DNA of 44,588 nucleotides. Source: an uncultured Candidatus Saccharibacteria bacterium. GTDB lineage: Bacteria; Patescibacteriota; Saccharimonadia; Saccharimonadales; UBA7683. The stretch spans positions 1-44,588 of the forward strand of contig CAZWBG010000001.1 in the NCBI GenBank assembly GCA_964632215.1, in the 5' to 3' direction. The notes beneath the pieces are model-generated. The model was not told where the DNA came from. It did not search any database and saw only the letters and a list, made by a program, of their open reading frames with translations. The translations under genes were made by a program, and so were the position numbers. Of this stretch, positions 14,853 through 31,477 are shown piece by piece (positions within the stretch are counted from its first letter, which is position 1; the number at the start of each line of letters is the position of its first letter).

Positions 14853-15884
14853 TTACTCGGCTAGTTCGTAAGTAGCTTTGGCCACACGCTTGAACTGTGG
14901 CTTGCCCTGTAGGTTGAGCAAAATAGTTGTCTCACGTACCTGTCGGCTTTTGAGTACTTCACGGACAATATCGTCGCGGTGCATCGGCGCCTTAGACTTT
15001 TTAAGAATTTTGGCAATAATATCAGATACCGTACCTTTGCTGTAGCCCCACTCTGCAAGTGCGTAAATACCACGGCCGATGAGCACAAAGCGCTTGTCTT
15101 TAATAAGTTCGTTATGAATTGCCTGGGTGGTAACATCTTTTCGCTTGAAGTCAGATTCTTTGATCTTGCCAGCAATCTCTGAAAAGTGCATAGGTTTGCC
15201 ATTCTCTTGTAAAATTACATAGATTTTGTCACGGATGTTCTTTGGGTTCACCAAAGGCCACTTTACGTAACCCCATTGGTTCTTTAGGTGTGCAAGATGT
15301 TTGCTAAGGCTAGCCAAGGCCTTCACATGGTCGGGGTGCTCATAGCCGCTGAGCTGCTGGTAGAGTTCGGTAATAGTAACCGGTTGGCCGTGAGCTTTAA
15401 TGGCTTCTAAAATTGCATCAACTTGGCTTTTAACTTTTTTGTCGTCACCGTATTCTTTAATGCCAAGCGCGTGATAATAATCGTCATTCTCTTCAACAAC
15501 AGTGATTCCAGGTGCAAGAGTGCCTAGGAATGCCACATGGGCTTTGTCTCGTTCGTCACCAGACTTACTCATCTTTTTAGCAAGGTCGCTCACACGAGCA
15601 ACGCGGCCCATTTCTGAAAGCTGACGAACGAGTTCACGTTCAACTTGCTTAATATGTGGCAAATCGTCCTTCTCAGCTGCAAGCTTTAAGCGAATTAAAA
15701 TAGCTTTTTCAAGTTGTCGTACTCGTTCACGGGTAATGCCGAGCAACTCCCCTATTTGTTCGAGTGTTTCTTTGCGATCGTATAAACCAAATCGACGAGC
15801 AATAATCTCACGTTCACGATCACGTTCGATCGTTTCAACGATGTCCTTAGTTGCCTGTTTAATGTCGAGCTTGGTTTCATCCAT
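14853..15884 (-). CDS. Sigma70 region-4 HTH plus winged-HTH (HARE-HTH/RNAP delta-like) protein
   Basis: REREIIARRFGL..ETLEQIGELLGITRERVRQLE at the N-terminus. GKPMHFSEIA and HNELIKDKRFVLIGRGIYALAEW in the C-terminal half. Confidence 0.8.
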   Translation of the reverse strand: MDETKLDIKQATKDIVETIERDREREIIARRFGLYDRKETLEQIGELLGITRERVRQLEKAILIRLKLAAEKDDLPHIKQVERELVRQLSEMGRVARVSDLAKKMSKSGDERDKAHVAFLGTLAPGITVVEENDDYYHALGIKEYGDDKKVKSQVDAILEAIKAHGQPVTITELYQQLSGYEHPDHVKALASLSKHLAHLKNQWGYVKWPLVNPKNIRDKIYVILQENGKPMHFSEIAGKIKESDFKRKDVTTQAIHNELIKDKRFVLIGRGIYALAEWGYSKGTVSDIIAKILKKSKAPMHRDDIVREVLKSRQVRETTILLNLQGKPQFKRVAKATYELAE

Positions 15885-15931
15885 GGTTATATTCCTATTG
15901 AAGTTCTTTACAGTTATTGTAGATTATACCT

Positions 15932-15960
15932 ATTGTAATATATAAATTGTTTAAAGTCAA
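15932..15960 (-). promoter_or_regulatory. Sigma70 promoter for the HTH gene
   Basis: TTGACT-17-TACAAT on the minus strand, about 50 bp upstream of the start codon. Confidence 0.7.
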
Positions 15961-16090
15961 CATCAACTTCTTTATCAGATGTATGTAACTATTATAGCAC
16001 TAAGTAGACGACTTTAAAAATACCTTATTACCCTATATATCCAGATGTATATTAGTCAAGCTTATGGTATACCTTATAATTTCAACAAAT

Positions 16091-16138
16091 TAAAAAGCGC
16101 TCATGTGCAGCTCATCTTTCGATGGCGCGCAGAGCGCT
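16091..16138 (-). terminator. Intrinsic terminator closing the large RNA
   Basis: AGCGCTC (16096-16102) pairs with GAGCGCT (16132-16138), encloses CATC-GAAA-GATG on the minus strand and is followed by a U-run on the minus strand. Confidence 0.7.
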
Positions 16139-16961
16139 AGAGTGGTTGGGCTCAGGGAATTCCCTCATTTACCTCCGGGAGAGATTGGAGGTTTAGGGAA
16201 TTCCCTGAGCACCCTATGTACAGCGGAGCCGCGAAGCCATGCGTCTCGAACGCTATACAAGATGGTTGCCTCGGATCACTGGGCGGTTAGGCAAACAGTG
16301 ATCCGAGACTGACCGTTATAGGGGCGGAGGTCCCATAACGGCGTGTAGTGTCTCCAGTGGTAGTTGCCCATTCCCGATCCCCCGAGGGGAATAGTAGGCC
16401 ACTGGAGACGATATGGTGATAATAAATTATCACGCGATGTTGCGAGCTAAACTCGTATCCTCACTCGAGTGTCCCCTTGGGGACTTTCGTGCAAAAGCAC
16501 ACTCGAGATCTTAGGAGACAAGCAGGGGTATAACCCACTTTTTTATACTCAGGAATTCTATTCCAAGGCATAAATAGCTCGCTCAGAGACACTATAGTGA
16601 TGCAGAAATACCTGGGAGGGCGCAGTTCTGTGATCACGTTCGTATCTCAAGGTTTTGTGAGTAATATGACAAAATGGTACCGCGGTTGCGTGCATTCCAT
16701 GTTCATCATAGGGCAAACCAATACGGGCTGCAGGTTGTGGTCCGAAGGCCACTCCTTGTTGACTGAGAGATCACTGTCTCTCTAGTGTTGCCGTATTTCA
16801 CTCACGCAGGAGATGATCTGAGGTGAAATCAAGAAAAGAGTTCCGTCAATCCTTAGGTCACTTCAATATCTCCGTATTGTGTTGAGCCAAAGACTCGAAC
16901 CTAGATTCTTACAAAAAATCTACATTTGAGCCTTCGGCATTCCGCCAATTCTTAAGGTGCG
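16091..16961 (-). ncRNA. Candidate large (~870 nt) structured non-coding RNA of unidentified class
   Basis: Consensus promoter upstream and terminator downstream. No ORF over 70 aa. Perfect stems of 16, 12, 11, 9 and 7 bp. Several imperfect stems resolve as G-U pairs on the minus strand. Confidence 0.75.
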
Positions 16962-16967
16962 ATATGT

Positions 16968-16996
16968 ATTATACAGATAAGCAATACTTTTGTCAA
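16968..16996 (-). promoter_or_regulatory. Perfect-consensus sigma70 promoter
   Basis: TTGACA (16996-16991), 17-bp spacer, TATAAT (16973-16968). The next gene on this strand is more than 1 kb away and has its own promoter. Confidence 0.88.
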
Positions 16997-17013
16997 CGTA
17001 TGTTTGTGCGCTG

Positions 17014-19326
17014 CTACTTTTTAGTCTTTTTACGCCCAGCGAAACGTTTTTTAGCGGGAGCCTTCTCCAGCAGTTCTTTGGCTATTTCTTCGGTGATATC
17101 TTTAGGCTCAACATCTTTGGGAATTTTAGCATTCTTTTTGCCATCGGTAATATAGGGTCCATAACGGCCTTTTAGTACCTTTAGCCCCCCGCCGAAGTCG
17201 GCAATATTCTTCTCAGCTTCGGTCTTTAACTTCTCAGCGTATAGCGCTTTAGCCTCATCAAGCGTAATAGTATGAGGGTCGAGTGGTTTAATGCTGACAA
17301 ACAGCTTGTCTATCTGTATATAGGGTCCAAAACGACCAATATTAGCCTTAATATCTTGACCGTCGTCAGTTTGACCAACAACTCGTGGGAGCTTAAACAT
17401 CTCTAAGGCGTCTTCTAACGTGACGGTTTCTAGTTTGGAGCCAGTTGGAAGTGGTGCAAAACGAGGTTTATCTGTCTCGTCTTCGGTAGCACCTAGTTGC
17501 AACATGGGACCATAGCGGCCAAAACGGGCCAAAACAGGCTTGCCGGTCTTGGGATCAGTACCGATCTCTCGGGCTTGGGCTACCTCGCTACGCTTAATGT
17601 CTCCAGATTTTTCTATAAGATCGTGAAATGGTGTGTAGAAATCTTGTAGCATTTTGTTACGCTCAAGTTTGCCACCAGCAATTTCGTCAAATTCAGCCTC
17701 AACCTTAGCAGTAAAGCCGTAGTCGACTACCTGGTCAAAATGACCAGTTAGAAAGTCGCTGACTACTTGCCCGCTGGCAGTTGGTACTAATTTACCGCGA
17801 TCTGCACCAGTTTTTTCTTGTACAACCTCGCGCTGCACGGCTCCATTTTGTAGGTTGAGCGTGATAACATCACGTGGCTCACCTTCACCCTCGCCTTTTT
17901 GGGCATAGCCGCGCACCTGAACGGTATTAATGATGGTGGCGTAGGTAGAAGGTCGGCCAATGCCAAGATCCTCAAGCTTTTTAACCAGACTACCTTCGCT
18001 GTAACGAGCTGGAGGTCGGGCAAATATTTGGCGAGCACCGGCTGTTTGCAGGTCTAGGCTATCTTGCGCTTTGACCGCGGGTAGAATATCAGCTTCTTTT
18101 TTGCTACCACCATACACTTTTAGGAAGCCGTCGAAGAGAATCACCTCGCCCTTGGCTTCAAATAGTTCGTTGCCCGTAGAGACTACAATCTTAATAACTG
18201 TTTTTTCCAACTTAGCGGGTGCCATCTGGCTGGCTAGCGTGCGGCGACGAATCAGGTCATAAAGTTTTTGGTTGTATTCGTCACTACTGGCGTGCTCGAT
18301 TTTAACATCTGTCGGGCGAATTGCCTCATGAGCTTCTTGGGCACCACTTGCCTTGGTCTTGAAAGTTCGCACTTGATGATATTGTTTACCAAATTCAGAG
18401 GTAATATAGTCGGTCATTTGGGCGAGTGCTTGGCCACTGAGGTTGACCGAATCAGTACGCATATAGGTAATTTTACCTTCTTGATAGAGCTTCTGGGCGG
18501 CCGACATGGTGGCCTTGGCACTAAAGCCAAGCCGGCTGTTGGCATCTTGCTGCAGGGTACTAGTAGTAAACGGTGCACCAGGGTTGCGAGTGCTGGGGCT
18601 GGTGGTGACATCGGAAACTGTAAAGCTAGCGTTAATTAAGCTTTCTAAAAAGGCTTGGGCTTCCTCTTCCGTCTCGAAGCGTTTTGGTAGCTCAGCCTTC
18701 ATAGCTGCGCCTGCCACGCTAAATTCAGCAGTTACCTTAAAGACTGCTGAGCCAGCGAAAGCATCAATTTCACGCTCACGTTCTACGAGTAGCCGTACAG
18801 CTGGTGATTGAACACGCCCAGCAGATTTACCGCCGGGAACCTTTTGCCAAACAACTGGTGAGAGTTCAAAACCAACTAATCTATCAAGAATTTGACGGGC
18901 TTGTTGGGCTTGAACGAGACTCATATCTACGGTGCGGGGGTTTTTGACCGCCTCTTCGATCGCACCCTTAGTAATTTCGTGAAATACAATTCGCTTGGTA
19001 GTTTTTGGATCAAGCTTCAAGACCTCGCATAAATGCCAGGCAATCGCCTCTCCTTCGCGGTCTTCATCGGTTGCGAGCCAGACGGTCTCAGTAGTTTTGA
19101 CGGCTTTTTTCAGCTCTGCAATAACCTTCTTCTTTTCTGGATCAACCTCATACACCGTTTCAAAGCCAGCCTCAACGTTAATCGGCTCAGCTCCGCCTTT
19201 TGCTTTCTTAGCAATCGAACGTATATGACCCACGCTTGAGAGCACGGTAAAATCGCTACCGAGGTACTTCTCGATAGTTTTGGCCTTGGCTGGCGACTCT
19301 ACAATTACTAAGTTCTTTTTGCTCAT
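17014..19326 (-). CDS. topA: DNA topoisomerase I with C-terminal repeats
   Basis: LVIVESPAKAKTI, LATDEDREGEAIAWH, SAGRVQS, GKITYMRTDS (catalytic Tyr), GIGRPSTYA. Confidence 0.98.
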   Translation of the reverse strand: MSKKNLVIVESPAKAKTIEKYLGSDFTVLSSVGHIRSIAKKAKGGAEPINVEAGFETVYEVDPEKKKVIAELKKAVKTTETVWLATDEDREGEAIAWHLCEVLKLDPKTTKRIVFHEITKGAIEEAVKNPRTVDMSLVQAQQARQILDRLVGFELSPVVWQKVPGGKSAGRVQSPAVRLLVEREREIDAFAGSAVFKVTAEFSVAGAAMKAELPKRFETEEEAQAFLESLINASFTVSDVTTSPSTRNPGAPFTTSTLQQDANSRLGFSAKATMSAAQKLYQEGKITYMRTDSVNLSGQALAQMTDYITSEFGKQYHQVRTFKTKASGAQEAHEAIRPTDVKIEHASSDEYNQKLYDLIRRRTLASQMAPAKLEKTVIKIVVSTGNELFEAKGEVILFDGFLKVYGGSKKEADILPAVKAQDSLDLQTAGARQIFARPPARYSEGSLVKKLEDLGIGRPSTYATIINTVQVRGYAQKGEGEGEPRDVITLNLQNGAVQREVVQEKTGADRGKLVPTASGQVVSDFLTGHFDQVVDYGFTAKVEAEFDEIAGGKLERNKMLQDFYTPFHDLIEKSGDIKRSEVAQAREIGTDPKTGKPVLARFGRYGPMLQLGATEDETDKPRFAPLPTGSKLETVTLEDALEMFKLPRVVGQTDDGQDIKANIGRFGPYIQIDKLFVSIKPLDPHTITLDEAKALYAEKLKTEAEKNIADFGGGLKVLKGRYGPYITDGKKNAKIPKDVEPKDITEEIAKELLEKAPAKKRFAGRKKTKK

Positions 19327-20960: not shown

Positions 20961-21818
20961 TTATTTTAGGGTCCAGTGGGCGGCGCCGAGTGGGATAATT
21001 TTACCGTTGATCTCGAGCATGGTCATAGCTTGGCTGAATTGGGCAGGTTCAAGCTGACTTTTGGCCTGTAGCTCTTCCATGTCACTTACTCCCTCTTGCA
21101 GTAGGTCTATAATAAGCTGCTCTTCTTTGGTATCGCCAAAAACCTCTTCCCGCTCTTTTGTTTGGGCCTGTACGCCTAGGGCATTCAAAACATCTTGAGC
21201 CTCGGTAACAGGTATGGCTCCAGATTTGATCAGATTGTTGGGCCCCACACTCAGTGGGCTAGTTGCATTGCCTGGCACAGCGCCAACCAGCTTATTTTGT
21301 TCCAGGGCGTAGTTTGCGGTAATCAGCGAGCCACTGGCTTGGGCGGCTTCGGTAATAATTGCCATGTCGCTCAGCCCAGCAACCAAACGGTTGCGGGCAA
21401 TAAAGTGCTGTTTAAGCGCTGGGGTGCCCTCGGGGTACTCACTTACAATAGTGCCACCTTTTTGTAAAATATCGATTGCCAGATTGCGATGGCTGGCTGG
21501 ATATATGGTGTTTAGGCCACAAGCGAGCACGGCGATAGTTCTGCCACCGGCTTCTATAGCCGCTTTATGGGCAATTCCATCGGTTCCTAGTGCCAAACCG
21601 CTTACAATGGTTATACCAGCCTGAGCGAGCTCGTAGGCTAGTCTGTAAGTCATCTCTTTGCCGTATTGGGTGTTTTTGCGACTACCAACAATGGTAACAG
21701 CTGGTAAGTAGTCAATTGGTGGCTCGCCTAGGTAGTAGAATTCTTTGGGCGGATAAGCAATTTCTAAGAGGTAAGGTGGATAGTGCTTATGATTCTTTAC
21801 AACTTTATTGATTTTCAT
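20961..21818 (-). CDS. dprA: DNA-processing protein DprA
   Basis: IVGSR..T.YG, VSGLALGTDG.AH, FIARNRLVAGLS, SGSLITA, GPNNLIKSGA, C-terminal winged helix. Confidence 0.96.
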   Translation of the reverse strand: MKINKVVKNHKHYPPYLLEIAYPPKEFYYLGEPPIDYLPAVTIVGSRKNTQYGKEMTYRLAYELAQAGITIVSGLALGTDGIAHKAAIEAGGRTIAVLACGLNTIYPASHRNLAIDILQKGGTIVSEYPEGTPALKQHFIARNRLVAGLSDMAIITEAAQASGSLITANYALEQNKLVGAVPGNATSPLSVGPNNLIKSGAIPVTEAQDVLNALGVQAQTKEREEVFGDTKEEQLIIDLLQEGVSDMEELQAKSQLEPAQFSQAMTMLEINGKIIPLGAAHWTLK

Positions 21819-21838
21819 ACAATTTTCTTCTTATACTA

Positions 21839-21867
21839 TTGACAGTAGCTTATATCTATGCTAGTAT
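21839..21867 (+). promoter_or_regulatory. Sigma70 promoter divergent from dprA
   Basis: TTGACA-17-TAGTAT with an extended -10 TG. Confidence 0.75.
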
Positions 21868-21873
21868 AGTTCT

Positions 21874-22246
21874 TCGTAAGCGATACAACTTTAAAAGTAT
21901 CGTTTTCGTACCTTTTATACCCCATTGTAACATTCCGCTTTCGGGCGGAAATCGTTAGGAAGTCCTTAAGCGTGTCGAAAAAAGTTTTTACCCTCCACTT
22001 TTTGAGCATCCTTAGCATATAGGCACTTAGCCTGCTAAGAACGCTTTAGGATCTTCTAACCCCTTTAACCCTACCCTTCTCGCTCCTTAGCGGAAAGAGT
22101 ACTTCAAAGTGAGCCCACAAAGGTATCTGCCTCGGCAGATGGCGGCTAGACATTCGAGAGAGACATGTCTCAGTACGCTTCGCTCGGGTGGGTTGAAGGG
22201 AGAATTCAGCGCCCAGCAGTGCCCACCCCTGCTGGGCGCTGTTTAT
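21874..22246 (+). ncRNA. Candidate ~370-nt structured RNA
   Basis: Bounded by a promoter and a 13-bp terminator stem, with no plus-strand ORF of 60 aa or more inside. Long stem 22061-22076/22186-22200 encloses smaller hairpins. Confidence 0.5.
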
Positions 22247-22248
22247 TT
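22207..22248 (+). terminator. Intrinsic terminator
   Basis: CAGCGCCCAGCAG pairs perfectly with CTGCTGGGCGCTG (13 bp), followed by TTTATTT. Confidence 0.75.
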
Positions 22249-22250
22249 CC

Positions 22251-22279
22251 TTGACTTTTTATTCTACTTTTGCTATAAT
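22251..22279 (+). promoter_or_regulatory. Sigma70 promoter for the downstream ORF
   Basis: TTGACT-17-TATAAT immediately after the terminator. Confidence 0.75.
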
Positions 22280-22440
22280 ATGGATATACAGTTGAGCTTT
22301 TAGCTCCTGTAGCACTTTTGATTTTATGGTAAGAGTTATATTGTTTTTGTCTGGGGGAATAAGCGCAGTGCTTTGCAGCGCGTTTATTCCCCTTGATTAA
22401 CTTCAAACAATTGACTACTGGGGGAGAGACGGGATATCCC

Positions 22441-22797
22441 ATGTGTAAAGACTCTGCATCGAATGCCGATTTGAGTGATGACCCACGTTTTGTAGAACTG
22501 GAGCTCGAGAGAATTCGCCTGCTGCGTCTGCACGTTTCACTTCTTCATAAGCTTGAGATGGTTCATCTCGAGCTTGATGAAGCGCGTGTACTCAAGCTTG
22601 AAGCATCGGTTGTGGATGGTCTCTGGGCCAAGCACGACGCGTTGATATGGGAACTCGATACGCAGCTGGTTCCGGACATCGCTGCTTACGAGGAGAAGGT
22701 GAAGATCTACAAGCGTGAAAGAGGAGTTGCCTCACCACCCACTGGCCATACGGAATTTGTTTACATCATGGGTATGGGATTTGCGGTAGTGGTATAA
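22441..22797 (+). CDS. Hypothetical helical protein
   Basis: Own promoter, purine-rich RBS region before ATG 22441, coiled-coil-like Leu/Glu-rich sequence. Confidence 0.55.
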   Translation: MCKDSASNADLSDDPRFVELELERIRLLRLHVSLLHKLEMVHLELDEARVLKLEASVVDGLWAKHDALIWELDTQLVPDIAAYEEKVKIYKRERGVASPPTGHTEFVYIMGMGFAVVV

Positions 22798-22801
22798 GTT
22801 C

Positions 22802-22843
22802 GGGTGGGTGTCACGCTACGAGTTACGCTCGTGACACCCACCC
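22802..22843. repeat. Perfect 14-bp inverted repeat between convergent genes
   Basis: GGGTGGGTGTCACG pairs with CGTGACACCCACCC. No U-tract. Confidence 0.8.
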
Positions 22844-22922
22844 AGCTCACCTCCCGTTTGACCTATCCATTAAATCAAAAGTTTCTGAGCGCCAATACGG
22901 CGCTCTTTTTTCATGCCCAGTT

Positions 22923-23528
22923 TCAGAGTTTTTCTAGGGCAGTTTGGATTATAGTTCCGAGCTGCTTTTTTTCTTCAGCGGAGAATTTGGCGAGAACAAA
23001 ATCAGCAGCATCTATTTTCTGGGCCAAATCATTTTTAATACCTATTCTTACTCGGTGGAAATCTTCACCAATATGAGCGATAATGCTCTTGAGGCCGTTG
23101 TTGCCAGCACTTCCCCCGCCTTGCTTCTCTTTTATGGTTCCAAACGGTAGATCAAGCTCGTCATGGACTACAAAGATATCGTTGTTACTCAGCTTGTAGA
23201 AATCTTTTAAAGTTCGCACTGATTCGCCGCTTAGGTTCATAAAAGTGGTTGGTTTGGCTAAAATTACCTTTTTACCATTTAGGAAATCCTCAGATACCAG
23301 GGCTTTGGACTTGGTTTTTTCTTGCCACTCAGGGAACGCATTAACCTTAGCGAACTCATCAGCTACTAAAAAGCCGACGTTGTGCCTGGTATCAGCATAT
23401 TGTTTACCAACATTACCGAGGCCAATTATCAGTTTAATAAAGCCATCATCTTCGTTAGATGCAGCGGGCCGTTCGTGGGCAATTTGTACGAGTTGGTCAC
23501 GTTTTTGGAAGCGTTGGAATAAAGCCAT
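22923..23528 (-). CDS. pth: Peptidyl-tRNA hydrolase
   Basis: LIIGLGNVG..Y..TRHNVGF, KPTTFMNLSG, HDELDLPFG, GGSAGNNGLKSI, RVRIGI. Confidence 0.96.
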   Translation of the reverse strand: MALFQRFQKRDQLVQIAHERPAASNEDDGFIKLIIGLGNVGKQYADTRHNVGFLVADEFAKVNAFPEWQEKTKSKALVSEDFLNGKKVILAKPTTFMNLSGESVRTLKDFYKLSNNDIFVVHDELDLPFGTIKEKQGGGSAGNNGLKSIIAHIGEDFHRVRIGIKNDLAQKIDAADFVLAKFSAEEKKQLGTIIQTALEKL

Positions 23529-23573
23529 AGCAATAAGTATCGGGTATCTTGGTGTAACTAGCAAGTGTGGCGG

Positions 23574-31130: not shown

Positions 31131-31345
31131 AGTGTCATATTGACCCTTCCTGCTTGCTCCCGTCCAGACACCTTCGTCGCGGGGTTATTATCTGTTATTC
31201 AGACAAGCTTTGTGATATTGGCTAAACTACGCTTATATGTTTCTATTATATCACTTTTTCGGTGTTGCTACGCTATAATAAGCAACAAGTCGCTAGTGCG
31301 GCGGTAGCCTAGAGCCACGTATATAACGAAGGTATGGTTATAAAT

Positions 31346-31440
31346 CCACGAAAAGAAACAGCTCGTCATGAGTACCTCTTTTCGTGGTTACTACTGGAAA
31401 CGGTAGTAGGGGCGCAAGCCTCGCTCGTGGCGGGCTTTTT
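31346..31440 (+). promoter_or_regulatory. Structured leader/attenuator-like RNA
   Basis: 11-bp stem 31346-31356/31377-31387 and 13-bp stem 31360-31372/31424-31436 followed by a U-run, plus GAAA- and GCAA-capped hairpins. Confidence 0.55.
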
Positions 31441-31477
31441 AGTTTGTCACGGCCACAAACTAAAAAGAGGAGGGTAC

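What the first reader, a model, noticed from the sequence alone, without database searches (positions are those of the whole stretch)
21839..22279. Second ncRNA candidate (~370 nt) divergent from dprA
Seen: extended TTGACA-17-TAGTAT promoter, no plus-strand ORF of 60 aa or more within the unit, hairpins TTCCGC-UUUCGG-GCGGAA, CTTAG/CTAAG and ATCTGC/GCAGAT, a 15-bp bulged stem (22061-22076/22186-22200) enclosing a multi-hairpin domain, and then a 13-bp terminator. A fresh promoter follows immediately, so this is unlikely to be merely the leader of the next ORF. The size matches tmRNA or RNase P RNA but their signatures are missing. A divergent 6S-like or novel RNA is possible (inference).
Basis: partly seen in the sequence, partly recalled or inferred. 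Interest (0 to 1): 0.6.

Follow-up and report, generated by a model that had tools for sequence, protein, structure and literature searches.

The report
New structured RNA family in Saccharibacteria
The gap between the dprA and pth genes holds a stand-alone gene for a folded non-coding RNA of about 380 bases; it is kept in nearly every genome searched of the ultrasmall Saccharibacteria, matches no catalogued RNA family, always displays the same C-rich ACCCUCC loop, and has no known function.

Summary
Window 21873-22250 (+) is a stand-alone non-coding RNA gene with its own extended sigma-70 promoter and an intrinsic terminator. It lies between dprA (divergent) and pth (convergent).

- **Not a known RNA.** Rfam 15 gives no match. 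RNase P RNA and tmRNA sit elsewhere in this genome, and so does a weak 6S candidate.
- **Distribution.** A covariance model found one copy in 140 of 151 Saccharimonadales genomes. Three of four apparent absences re-examined had weaker copies. A shorter homologue occupies the same dprA/pth slot in a sister order, and the core motif occurs across the class. I found nothing above background elsewhere in Patescibacteria.
- **Structure.** It is strongly supported: 91.7% of cells pair, and 69 of 78 pairs show compensatory change.
- **Invariant parts.** These are a hairpin loop ACCCUCC (anti-Shine-Dalgarno-like), the helix CCCUUUAA/UUGAAGGG and, within the order, a GGGUGGG tract and a 3' hairpin loop CCCACCC.
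- **Function.** It is unknown. My best guess (about 0.4) is trans pairing with G-rich, Shine-Dalgarno-like RNA. A protein-binding scaffold is nearly as likely.

This scan had already reported the same family on other DNA (e1-2531081). New here are the class-wide range, the 3' loop, the alternative pairings and the excluded partners.

The parts
21839..21867 (+). Promoter of the RNA: -35 TTGACA, 17-nt spacer, extended -10 TGcTAGTAT
   Evidence: Promoter scan, 10 of 12 with TG. TTGACA and TGCTAATAT are invariant or nearly so in 11 same-family homologues. TTGACA also lies upstream in 18 of 19 sister-order loci.
21873..22250 (+). The RNA itself, about 378 nt. The start is inferred about 7 nt after the -10 box; the end is at the U-tract after the 3' hairpin.
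   Evidence: Fold z = -7.36. Covariance model R1 scores 298.9 bits on 21907-22245. Covariation over 100 homologues: 91.7% paired, 69 of 78 pairs compensatory. Frequent G-U pairs fix the strand as +. The ends are inferred, not mapped.
21878..21905 (+). 5' hairpin P0 (family-level feature)
   Evidence: RNAalifold pairs 10-16 with 31-37, with CG/UA and AU/GC exchanges among 9 same-family sequences.
21908..21932 (+). Conserved single-stranded 5' block GUACCUUUUAUACCCCAUUGUAACA (order consensus GnACCUUnUA..CCC..UUCUAAC)
   Evidence: Unpaired in the consensus structure and at least 90% conserved at many positions in 100 sequences.
21933..21950 (+). P1 variable hairpin (UUCCGC-UUUCGG-GCGGAA)
   Evidence: All 5 pairs show compensatory changes.
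21954..22060 (+). P2 domain: a long helix (21954-21968 with 22045-22060; outer GUUAG/CUAAC invariant, inner part covarying) that encloses P3 and P4
   Evidence: 10 of 14 pairs compensatory in both the 50- and 100-sequence alignments. One extra pair at MI 0.94 extends the helix.
21981..22001 (+). P3 hairpin AAAGU[UUUUACCCUCC]ACUUU. The loop core ACCCUCC is at 21990-21996. This is the universal signature of the family.
   Evidence: The loop is essentially invariant in the 100 aligned sequences. The same ACCCUCC loop sits on a different stem (CCUAAA/UUUAGG) in the sister order. Class-wide pattern hits.
22011..22039 (+). P4 variable hairpin (absent in the sister-order version)
   Evidence: All 10 pairs compensatory, lengths variable. 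No counterpart in A6.
22061..22200 (+). P5 domain: helix CCCUUUAACCC (22061-22071, extended to 22076 in this lineage) with GGGUUGAAGGG (22190-22200), enclosing variable hairpins 22077-22185
   Evidence: The helix sequence is nearly invariant in the order (99% paired). It covaries in the sister order (AU:10, CG:5 at one pair). The inner hairpins are fully compensatory.
22186..22192 (+). G-rich tract GGGUGGG, immediately 5' of and overlapping the P5 3' strand
   Evidence: Near-invariant in the order. It usually has no local partner, because the sequence after CCCUUUAAC varies. It is complementary to the 3' loop CCCACCC. Both motifs are absent in the sister order. The pseudoknot is an inference.
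22207..22249 (+). 3' hairpin and intrinsic terminator: a 13-bp stem, loop UGCCCACCCC (CCCACCC at 22222-22228), then UGUUUAUUU
   Evidence: Terminator scan. All 14 stem pairs are compensatory while the loop stays fixed. CCCACCC occurs within 131 nt after P5 in 97 of 100 homologues.
20961..21818 (-). dprA, the conserved divergent neighbour. Its ATG lies 20 nt from the RNA's -35 box.
   Evidence: Pfam DNA_processg_A, 3.2e-70. Divergent neighbour in 42 loci of about 48 and in the sister order. No Shine-Dalgarno motif in most of 154 dprA upstream regions, and the reverse complement of TTGACA lies within 25 nt of the ATG.
22923..23564 (-). pth (peptidyl-tRNA hydrolase), the conserved convergent neighbour
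   Evidence: Pfam Pept_tRNA_hydro, 1e-58. Convergent downstream in 36 loci of the order and in 15 of 18 sister-order loci.

Best explanation
Window 21873-22250 (+) is a stand-alone gene for a structured non-coding RNA of about 380 nt. The RNA belongs to an unclassified family found across the class Saccharimonadia (Ca. Saccharibacteria/TM7).

A strong extended sigma-70 promoter starts the transcript and an intrinsic terminator hairpin ends it. The transcript folds into two covarying domains, P2 and P5. These act as a scaffold that holds invariant C-rich sequences single-stranded:
- the P3 loop ACCCUCC;
- the 5' block ACCUU..CCCC;
- in Saccharimonadales, the 3' hairpin loop CCCACCC.

The mechanism I think most likely is action in trans by base pairing. 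The anti-Shine-Dalgarno-like loop would pair with G-rich, GGAGG(G)-type sequences, such as ribosome-binding sites of mRNAs, and so lower their translation or titrate them. This is the logic of RsaE/RoxS, 6C and Yfr1, but on a much larger scaffold. The CCCACCC loop probably also docks on GGGUGGG inside the molecule, as a pseudoknot that locks the 3' end.

Shown here: the gene, its strand, its fold, its conservation and its invariant loops. Inferred: high expression, the exact ends, the pseudoknot and the whole trans-pairing mechanism.

That this is a real, undescribed, structured stand-alone RNA I put at about 0.97. The mechanism I put at about 0.4, and that is the confidence given here.
For: **The gene is real and stand-alone**
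- Promoter and terminator are present, and both are conserved in 11 same-family homologues.
- Both flanking conserved genes are on the other strand.
- The region is non-coding: the median longest ATG ORF is 23 aa, and the reading frame between conserved blocks is random at 33/30/27.

**The fold is supported**
- Fold z = -7.36.
- 29 of 86 pairs are compensatory in 9 sequences.
- 93.1% of cells pair and 61 of 78 pairs are compensatory in 50 sequences.
- 91.7% of cells pair and 69 of 78 pairs are compensatory in 100 sequences; 0 of 500 shuffles reach this, and slid controls give 34-53%.

**Distribution**
- 140 of 151 genomes of the order have a hit, mostly one copy each.
- Three of four re-examined 'misses' (those with dprA) have weaker copies beside it.
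- The sister order has the same architecture in the same locus.
- The core pattern occurs in 90 of 151 genomes of the class, against roughly 0.2 control hits per genome.

**Points that favour the mechanism**
- ACCCUCC is unpaired in the consensus and essentially invariant, while its stem changes between orders.
- It contains CCUCC, the core of the 16S anti-Shine-Dalgarno sequence (established knowledge).
- The 3' loop CCCACCC is fixed while all 14 pairs of its stem covary.
- In this genome the full 10-nt complement GUGGAGGGUA sits 7 nt before the ATG of a membrane-anchored FKBP-type gene. Shorter complements lie at two other ribosome-binding sites.
- Known precedents of widely conserved sRNAs with invariant C-rich loops that pair with G-rich or ribosome-binding sites are RsaE/RoxS, 6C and Yfr1 (my own knowledge).
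Against: - No target is demonstrated. In this genome extended complementarity at ribosome-binding sites is no commoner than chance: G follows GGAGG in 14 of 51 cases. About 1.8 perfect 10-mers are expected by chance and 2 were found.
- Base-pairing sRNAs are usually 50-150 nt. This RNA is 220-400 nt.
- Sequence-invariant helices (GUUAG/CUAAC and CCCUUUAA/UUGAAGGG) suit protein recognition or tertiary structure better than a mere display scaffold.
- A loop that complements every strong Shine-Dalgarno sequence would lack specificity.
- There is no transcript evidence. 16S rRNA is not in this assembly, so the organism's own anti-Shine-Dalgarno sequence could not be compared.
- The pseudoknot has no covariation, because both partners are invariant. 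A few sequences keep CCCACCC although GGGUGGG is altered.
Confidence: 0.4

Rival explanations
1. The RNA is a ribonucleoprotein scaffold or a protein-sequestering housekeeping RNA, with the logic of 6S, Ms1, CsrB or OLE. The invariant C-rich loops and the sequence-invariant P5 and P2-base helices would be binding sites for one or more proteins, and the RNA would work as part of, or as a decoy for, that complex.
For: - Conservation is near-universal, mostly single-copy and class-wide, with rRNA-like invariance of short elements on a covarying scaffold.
- Helix sequences are invariant although any base pair would keep the fold (helix 7: 99% paired, almost no variation).
- The size and multi-domain build are typical of RNP RNAs.
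- The promoter is very strong.
Against: - No partner was identified. The neighbours dprA and pth give no hint of one.
- The one candidate tested fails. The RRM protein of this genome is class-wide, but it was not found in genera g127, g101 and g132, where the RNA was found in g127, g101 and g132.
- Invariant unpaired C-rich loops are also typical of base-pairing sRNAs.
Confidence: 0.35
2. The locus works mainly in cis on its neighbours. The very strong promoter fires away from dprA and against pth. It would control dprA (natural competence) through promoter competition, transcriptional interference or antisense pairing with a pth-to-dprA read-through transcript. On this view the RNA product itself matters less.
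For: - The arrangement dprA <- | RNA -> | <- pth is kept across two orders, although DprA is only 45-53% identical between them.
- The dprA ATG lies about 15-25 nt from the RNA's -35 box, and most dprA genes lack a Shine-Dalgarno motif. dprA must therefore be leaderless or be transcribed from inside or through the RNA gene.
- No minus-strand promoter or pth terminator was detected in this interval.
Against: - Interference or antisense control needs no conserved fold. Yet 69 of 78 pairs covary, and the loops are invariant on the + strand reading, with many G-U pairs that would be A-C on the other strand.
- In this genome an extra promoter and a 134-aa ORF lie between the RNA and pth without disturbing the RNA.
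Confidence: 0.12
3. The element is a cis-regulatory leader, such as a riboswitch or attenuator, for the gene downstream on the + strand.
For: - A terminator hairpin follows a structured domain.
- Alternative pairings exist. In the sister order CCCUUUAA can pair either with an upstream UUGAAGGG or with the downstream UURAAGGG. In the order GUUAG has two CUAAC partners.
Against: - The conserved downstream gene is convergent.
- The small + strand ORFs downstream differ between genomes.
- In this genome the next ORF has its own 11-of-12 promoter after the terminator.
Confidence: 0.03
4. The element is a highly divergent member of a universal RNA family: RNase P RNA, tmRNA, 6S RNA or SRP RNA.
For: - The size resembles that of RNase P RNA or tmRNA.
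- No SRP RNA is detectable in this genome or in 40 relatives.
Against: - RNase P RNA (238 bits) and tmRNA (85 bits) are found elsewhere in the genome, and a weak 6S candidate (31.5 bits) as well.
- No Rfam family matches the element even at E up to 10, apart from noise on the terminator.
- The SRP proteins are missing too: PF02978, PF00448 and TIGR00959 give no hit, and the DTAGR motif does not occur in any frame of the genome in an ORF with a P-loop. An SRP RNA would therefore have no partner.
- SRP loss is known for CPR bacteria (PMC4508563, PMC8080830), and here it extends beyond the range of this RNA.
Confidence: 0.02

Closest known systems
RsaE/RoxS (Bacillales) and other C-rich-loop sRNAs: 6C RNA of Actinobacteria, Yfr1 of cyanobacteria
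   Same: All are stand-alone transcripts with their own promoter and terminator. All carry invariant unpaired C-rich motifs on hairpins and are conserved over unusually wide taxonomic ranges. The motifs complement G-rich or Shine-Dalgarno-type sequences (my own knowledge of these families).
   Different: Those RNAs are about 55-110 nt with two or three hairpins. This one is 220-400 nt with two multi-branched domains and sequence-invariant helices. It shows no sequence or model similarity to them: Rfam holds these families and none matches at E up to 10. No target is known.
6S RNA and Ms1 RNA (abundant RNA-polymerase-binding RNAs)
   Same: Each is a single-copy, probably abundant RNA of housekeeping type. 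Ms1 is also about 300 nt and lineage-restricted (my own knowledge).
   Different: 6S and Ms1 are rod-like with a central bubble. This RNA is branched. The Rfam 6S model does not match it, and it finds a separate weak candidate elsewhere in the genome.
Large bacterial ncRNAs of unknown or partly known function (OLE, raiA, ROOL, GOLLD)
   Same: All are lineage-restricted, strongly covarying multi-domain RNAs of a few hundred nt with invariant internal motifs. All were found by comparative genomics before any function was known.
   Different: There is no similarity to any of their Rfam models. The taxon differs (Saccharimonadia only), the RNA is smaller than OLE, ROOL or GOLLD, and its gene position between dprA and pth is fixed.
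LOOT RNA (RF03000), the other unexplained small RNA of this genome
   Same: It occurs in the same window (31306-31422) and elsewhere in the same genome, and its function is also unknown.
   Different: It is an unrelated model and sequence, 120 nt long, present in two copies and already catalogued in Rfam.

Membership tests
RNase P RNA, bacterial type A (RF00010) | Match to the covariance model (P4 pseudoknot, CR-I to CR-V) | tested here: not met
   No RNase P match in 21700-22500 even at E up to 10. The genome's RNase P RNA is at C4:25922-26422, 238.4 bits.
tmRNA (RF00023) | tRNA-like domain plus tag-peptide reading frame; match to the covariance model | tested here: not met
   No match in the region. 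The genome's tmRNA is at C1:420820-421215, 85.1 bits.
6S RNA (RF00013) | Long irregular hairpin with a large central bubble; match to the covariance model | tested here: not met
   No match in the region. The consensus fold is two multi-branched domains with 7 branch points. A separate weak candidate lies at C4:23598-23761, 31.5 bits, below the cut-off.
SRP RNA (RF00169, RF01854) | Helix 8 with a GNAR tetraloop and the symmetric/asymmetric loops that bind the Ffh M domain | tested here: not met
   No match in the region or anywhere in the genome. The partner proteins are absent as well.
RsaE/RoxS, 6C, Yfr1 (C-rich-loop sRNAs in Rfam) | Match to the family's covariance model | tested here: not met
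   cmscan against all 4227 Rfam families lists none of them at E up to 10, and none at gathering score in 5 homologous loci.
RsaE/RoxS, 6C, Yfr1 (C-rich-loop sRNAs in Rfam) | Functional hallmark: C-rich loops pair with G-rich or ribosome-binding sites of defined mRNAs | tested here: inconclusive
   Complements of the loop lie at three ribosome-binding sites of this genome, but this is not more than chance. Conservation of targets could not be tested, because whole genomes of relatives cannot be scanned with these tools.
Riboswitch or attenuator leader | Located in the 5' UTR of a conserved downstream gene on the same strand | tested here: not met
   The conserved downstream gene (pth) is convergent. 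The + strand ORFs downstream vary between genomes.
The Saccharimonadia RNA family defined here (model R1; same family as earlier scan report e1-2531081) | P2 helix enclosing a hairpin with loop ACCCUCC, directly followed by helix CCCUUUAA/UURAAGGG; own promoter, divergent from dprA | tested here: met
   The window copy scores 298.9 bits against R1, which was built with it (so this is partly circular). Independent homologues score 45-150 bits. All motifs are present at 21954-22200.

The most novel reading that the evidence does not exclude
The RNA may be the core of an undescribed housekeeping ribonucleoprotein, or a conformationally switching RNA machine, that is specific to Saccharibacteria and needed for their growth as epibionts. 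Possible roles are in translation or in the control of ribosome-binding sites, in a lineage that has lost SRP and much else. On this reading its three-strand alternative pairings and its invariant C-rich loops would be working parts, not a display scaffold.
Probability: 0.3. Interest if true: 0.85.

Novelty: new variant of a known kind. Interest (0 to 1): 0.7.

Why it matters
Saccharibacteria are the best-studied lineage of the Candidate Phyla Radiation. They are cultivable on Actinobacteria hosts and, from my own knowledge, naturally transformable.

A 2022 TM7x transcriptome paper states that TM7x has "no currently validated small RNAs" (10.1101/2022.03.25.485537). In genomes under 1 Mb that discard even SRP, a 220-400-nt RNA kept in single copy at one locus across a whole class is very likely important.

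It is missing from Rfam, so it goes unannotated in thousands of metagenome-assembled genomes. Covariance model R1 and the core pattern given here make it annotatable at once. The cultured strains make its function directly testable. Its invariant anti-Shine-Dalgarno-like loop points to a possible global layer of translational control in these reduced cells.

Tried and rejected
1. **Known RNA families.** Rfam at gathering score on the whole window, at E up to 10 on the region, and at gathering score on 5 homologous loci: nothing relevant.

2. **Divergent SRP RNA replacing a lost one.**
   - SRP RNA, the Ffh M domain, the SRP54 GTPase domain and ffh are indeed undetectable.
   - The loss is phylum-wide (0 of 201 genomes) and already published (PMC4508563, PMC8080830).
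   - It therefore does not track this RNA, and I rejected it as an explanation.

3. **RRM protein as partner** (lead from e1-2184469). The distribution does not fit.

4. **Pseudoknots by mutual information.** This yielded only one extra pair that extends P2. The C-rich and G-rich motifs are invariant, so nothing can be learned this way.

5. **Target search in this genome.** Complements of the loop occur at chance level. The ribosome-binding sites of dprA and pth show no conserved complementarity.

6. **Presence outside the class.** R1 on 150 genomes of the phylum hits only the same order. The pattern search outside the class stays at control level. The recurrent hits in family f110 are the antisense strand of a coding gene.

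7. **Coding potential.** Rejected.

8. **Literature.** Five full-text searches and three paper look-ups found no description of this RNA.

9. **Technical failures and gaps.**
   - One cmsearch call with filters off failed internally and was repeated with default filters.
   - 16S rRNA is not in the assembly, so the anti-Shine-Dalgarno comparison could not be made.
Full report
**What is there.**
- An extended promoter, TTGACA-17-TGcTAGTAT, lies at 21839-21867. The scan scores it 10 of 12 with TG.
- About 380 ORF-poor bases follow.
- A 13-bp GC-rich hairpin with a U-tract lies at 22207-22249.
- A second strong promoter lies at 22251-22279.
- The + strand folds at -141.4 kcal/mol, z = -7.36 against dinucleotide shuffles. 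The reverse strand gives z = -5.44.
- The only ORF of 60 aa or more that touches the unit on the + strand is a 64-aa GTG frame. It runs through the terminator and the next promoter.

**What it is not.**
- Rfam 15 finds only a LOOT RNA and a tRNA elsewhere in the window.
- At E up to 10, Rfam gives nothing in 21700-22500 apart from noise on the terminator hairpin.
- The window's genome has 929 kb in 15 contigs and is 97.75% complete.
- It carries RNase P RNA on contig 4 (238 bits), tmRNA at C1:420820 (85 bits) and a weak 6S candidate on contig 4 (31.5 bits).
- The element is single-copy in the genome.

**Conservation and structure.**
- BLASTN in 60 relatives found the whole element at about 70-75% identity in 12 of 15 same-family genomes. 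Its 3' part also appeared in many other families.
- Eleven family members align from the promoter to the terminator with long invariant blocks.
- RNAalifold on nine of them predicts 86 pairs, of which 29 show compensatory change.
- I built covariance model R1 from window 21907-22245 and eight relatives: 329 positions and 78 pairs.
- R1 hits 140 of 151 genomes sampled from the order, mostly once per genome.
- Among the apparent absences that have a dprA gene, three of four re-examined show weaker copies beside dprA (61, 44 and 28 bits). One further miss lacks dprA too, so it is probably an assembly gap.
- On 50 aligned homologues, 93.1% of cells pair and 61 of 78 pairs show changes on both sides.
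- On 100 homologues the figures are 91.7% and 69 of 78. No shuffle of 500 reaches the observed values, and slid controls give 34-53%.
- These alignments are fitted to the model, which favours its structure. However, the independent MAFFT/RNAalifold result and the size of the effect make the fold secure.
- Frequent G-U pairs fix the strand as +.
- The region is not coding. The median longest ATG ORF is 23 aa, and the frame between conserved blocks is random.

**Who has it.**
- Record titles from a public-collection scan identify the carriers as Candidatus Saccharibacteria / Saccharimonadales. R1 confirms the RNA in 69 of those 80 loci.
- With R1, the class-level sample hits 39 of 46 same-order genomes but only one genome of another order. 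The phylum-level sample hits only the same order.
- R1 is too specific, however. In a sister order, 18 of 19 dprA-upstream regions carry a TTGACA promoter. About 100-140 nt downstream of it lies a hairpin CCUAAA[.CUCACCCUCC]UUUAGG.
- Fifteen of these align to the same architecture: P2 encloses the ACCCUCC hairpin, helix CCCUUUMA/UKRAAGGG follows directly, then two inner hairpins and an ordinary terminator. Of 33 predicted pairs, 18 are compensatory.
- A strict core pattern occurs in 90 of 151 genomes of the class. Examples by family are 23/25, 9/10, 14/21, 3/3 and 5/6, against roughly 0.2 control hits per genome.
- Outside the class the pattern stays at control level. The recurrent hits in one family lie on the antisense strand of a coding gene.
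- The family is therefore class-wide in Saccharimonadia. I did not find it elsewhere in Patescibacteria with these queries.
- One unpublished genome (G048) is among the genomes counted.

**Anatomy in this window.**
- 5' hairpin P0: 21878-21905.
- Conserved single-stranded block: 21908-21932.
- P1 hairpin: 21933-21950.
- P2: 21954-21968 paired with 22045-22060.
- P3 hairpin: 21981-22001, with the loop core ACCCUCC at 21990-21996.
- P4: 22011-22039.
- P5: 22061-22071(76) paired with 22186/22190-22200, enclosing variable hairpins.
- 3' hairpin: 22207-22241, with loop CCCACCC at 22222-22228.

Across 100 sequences several elements are nearly invariant. They are the P3 hairpin, the outer GUUAG/CUAAC of P2, helix CCCUUUAAC/GUUGAAGGG and the tract GGGUGGG just before it. 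CCCACCC occurs within 131 nt after P5 in 97 of 100 sequences, and all 14 pairs of its stem covary.

GGGUGGG usually has no local partner, because the sequence after CCCUUUAAC varies. It is perfectly complementary to CCCACCC, and both motifs are missing together in the sister order. I therefore propose a pseudoknot. This is inference only, because neither motif varies.

Alternative pairings exist. In the sister order an upstream UUGAAGGG can extend P2 by pairing with CCCUUUAA, in competition with P5. That pairing shows some compensation, but less than P5 does. In Saccharimonadales the 5' block carries a second CUAAC that could compete for GUUAG.

**Context.**
- dprA (Pfam 3.2e-70) is the divergent neighbour in 42 of about 48 loci, at a median gap of 79 nt. 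pth (1e-58) is the convergent neighbour in 36.
- The same order holds in 15 of 18 sister-order loci. The RNA therefore lies antisense in the pth-dprA spacer across the class, and it cannot be the leader of a conserved downstream gene.
- The dprA ATG sits within about 25 nt of the RNA's -35 box, and dprA mostly lacks a Shine-Dalgarno motif. dprA must then be leaderless or be transcribed through the RNA gene. This keeps a cis role (promoter competition or antisense) alive as a minor rival.
- In this genome a separate promoter, a structured leader and a 134-aa ORF of unknown function are inserted between the RNA and pth.

**Function.** None is shown.

*For trans base pairing.* The ACCCUCC loop contains the CCUCC core of the anti-Shine-Dalgarno sequence. 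It is unpaired and is invariant over two orders although its stem changes. RsaE/RoxS, 6C and Yfr1 are precedents for widely conserved sRNAs with C-rich loops that pair with G-rich or ribosome-binding sites (my own knowledge). In this genome the perfect 10-nt complement lies 7 nt upstream of the ATG of a membrane-anchored FKBP-type gene, and shorter complements lie at two other ribosome-binding sites. These counts are at chance level.

*For a protein-bound scaffold.* The points in favour are the size, the invariant helix sequences and the housekeeping-like distribution. The one candidate partner I could test is the RRM protein of this genome. It does not share the RNA's distribution.

I put trans pairing at about 0.4, an RNP scaffold at about 0.35, a mainly cis role at about 0.12, and the remaining readings lower.

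**Side results.**
- SRP RNA, the Ffh M domain, the SRP54 GTPase domain and ffh are undetectable in this genome. They are also undetectable in the 30-200 relatives searched, up to phylum level.
- The invariant DTAGR motif of SRP GTPases does not occur in any frame of this genome in an ORF that also has a P-loop.
- This agrees with published reports for Parcubacteria and other CPR bacteria (PMC4508563, PMC8080830). It does not explain this RNA, whose range is narrower.

**Novelty.**
- No Rfam family matches, and no paper in the held library describes the RNA.
- A TM7x transcriptome paper states that TM7x has no validated small RNAs.
- This scan had already met the family on other genomes. Several first-reader notes and one follow-up (e1-2531081) reached the same basic reading, including the comparison with RsaE/RoxS. 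My analysis was done before I read those notes, and it agrees with them.
- New here are the extension to a sister order and to the class, the universal CCCACCC loop with its GGGUGGG partner, the alternative pairings, the conserved pth side of the synteny, and the exclusion of SRP and the RRM protein as explanations.

Noticed in passing
window 15885-17013 (minus strand suspected): A 1.13-kb gap without any ORF of 90 aa or more lies between two minus-strand genes (14853-15884 and 17014-19326). No Rfam family matches it, even at E up to 0.1.
   Followed up: partly
window 31306-31422 (+) and G000:C1:549336-549455: The genome has two LOOT RNA copies (68.8 and 78.1 bits). The window copy is followed at 31467 by GAGGAGGGUA, one base and an ATG that opens an 80-aa membrane-protein-like ORF. 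That ribosome-binding site complements the ACCCUCC loop.
   Followed up: partly
whole genome G000 and relatives: No SRP RNA, Ffh or FtsY signature is detectable in this genome. None is detectable in 30-200 sampled Patescibacteria either. This is consistent with published CPR reports.
   Followed up: yes
window 22251-22850 (+): This is a separate unit inserted between the RNA and pth. It has a near-consensus promoter (22251-22279) and a hairpin-rich leader of about 110-160 nt. A 134-aa ORF follows (22393-22797; only a weak sub-threshold AMMECR1 hit), then a long GC-rich hairpin at about 22800-22850 that again contains GGGUGGG/CCCACCC. The promoter is shared with two same-family genomes in alignment A1.
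   Followed up: partly
G000:C4:23598-23761 and C4:25922-26422: A sub-threshold 6S RNA candidate (31.5 bits against a cut-off of 46.4) lies 2 kb upstream of the RNase P RNA gene.
   Followed up: no
G000:C1:557195-557404 and class-wide: A single-RRM RNA-binding protein is found in 133 of 151 Saccharimonadia genomes, which is unusual for bacteria (2 of 14 control genomes). It was not found in the genera g101, g127 and g132.
   Followed up: partly
window 21790-21845 and 154 dprA loci: dprA genes of this class mostly lack a Shine-Dalgarno motif. They start 15-25 nt from the RNA's -35 box, often after a GATAAT-like box 5-7 nt before the ATG. This hints at a leaderless dprA mRNA or at overlapping divergent promoters.
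   Followed up: partly
L012 (G012:C10) and G012:C4:254983-255428: One same-family genome shows the RNA locus on two contigs. Its copy carries a 68-nt palindromic insertion in the P1 loop. This may be assembly redundancy or a real duplication.
   Followed up: no
whole genome G000: No 16S rRNA gene is present in the assembly, although estimated completeness is 97.75%.
   Followed up: yes
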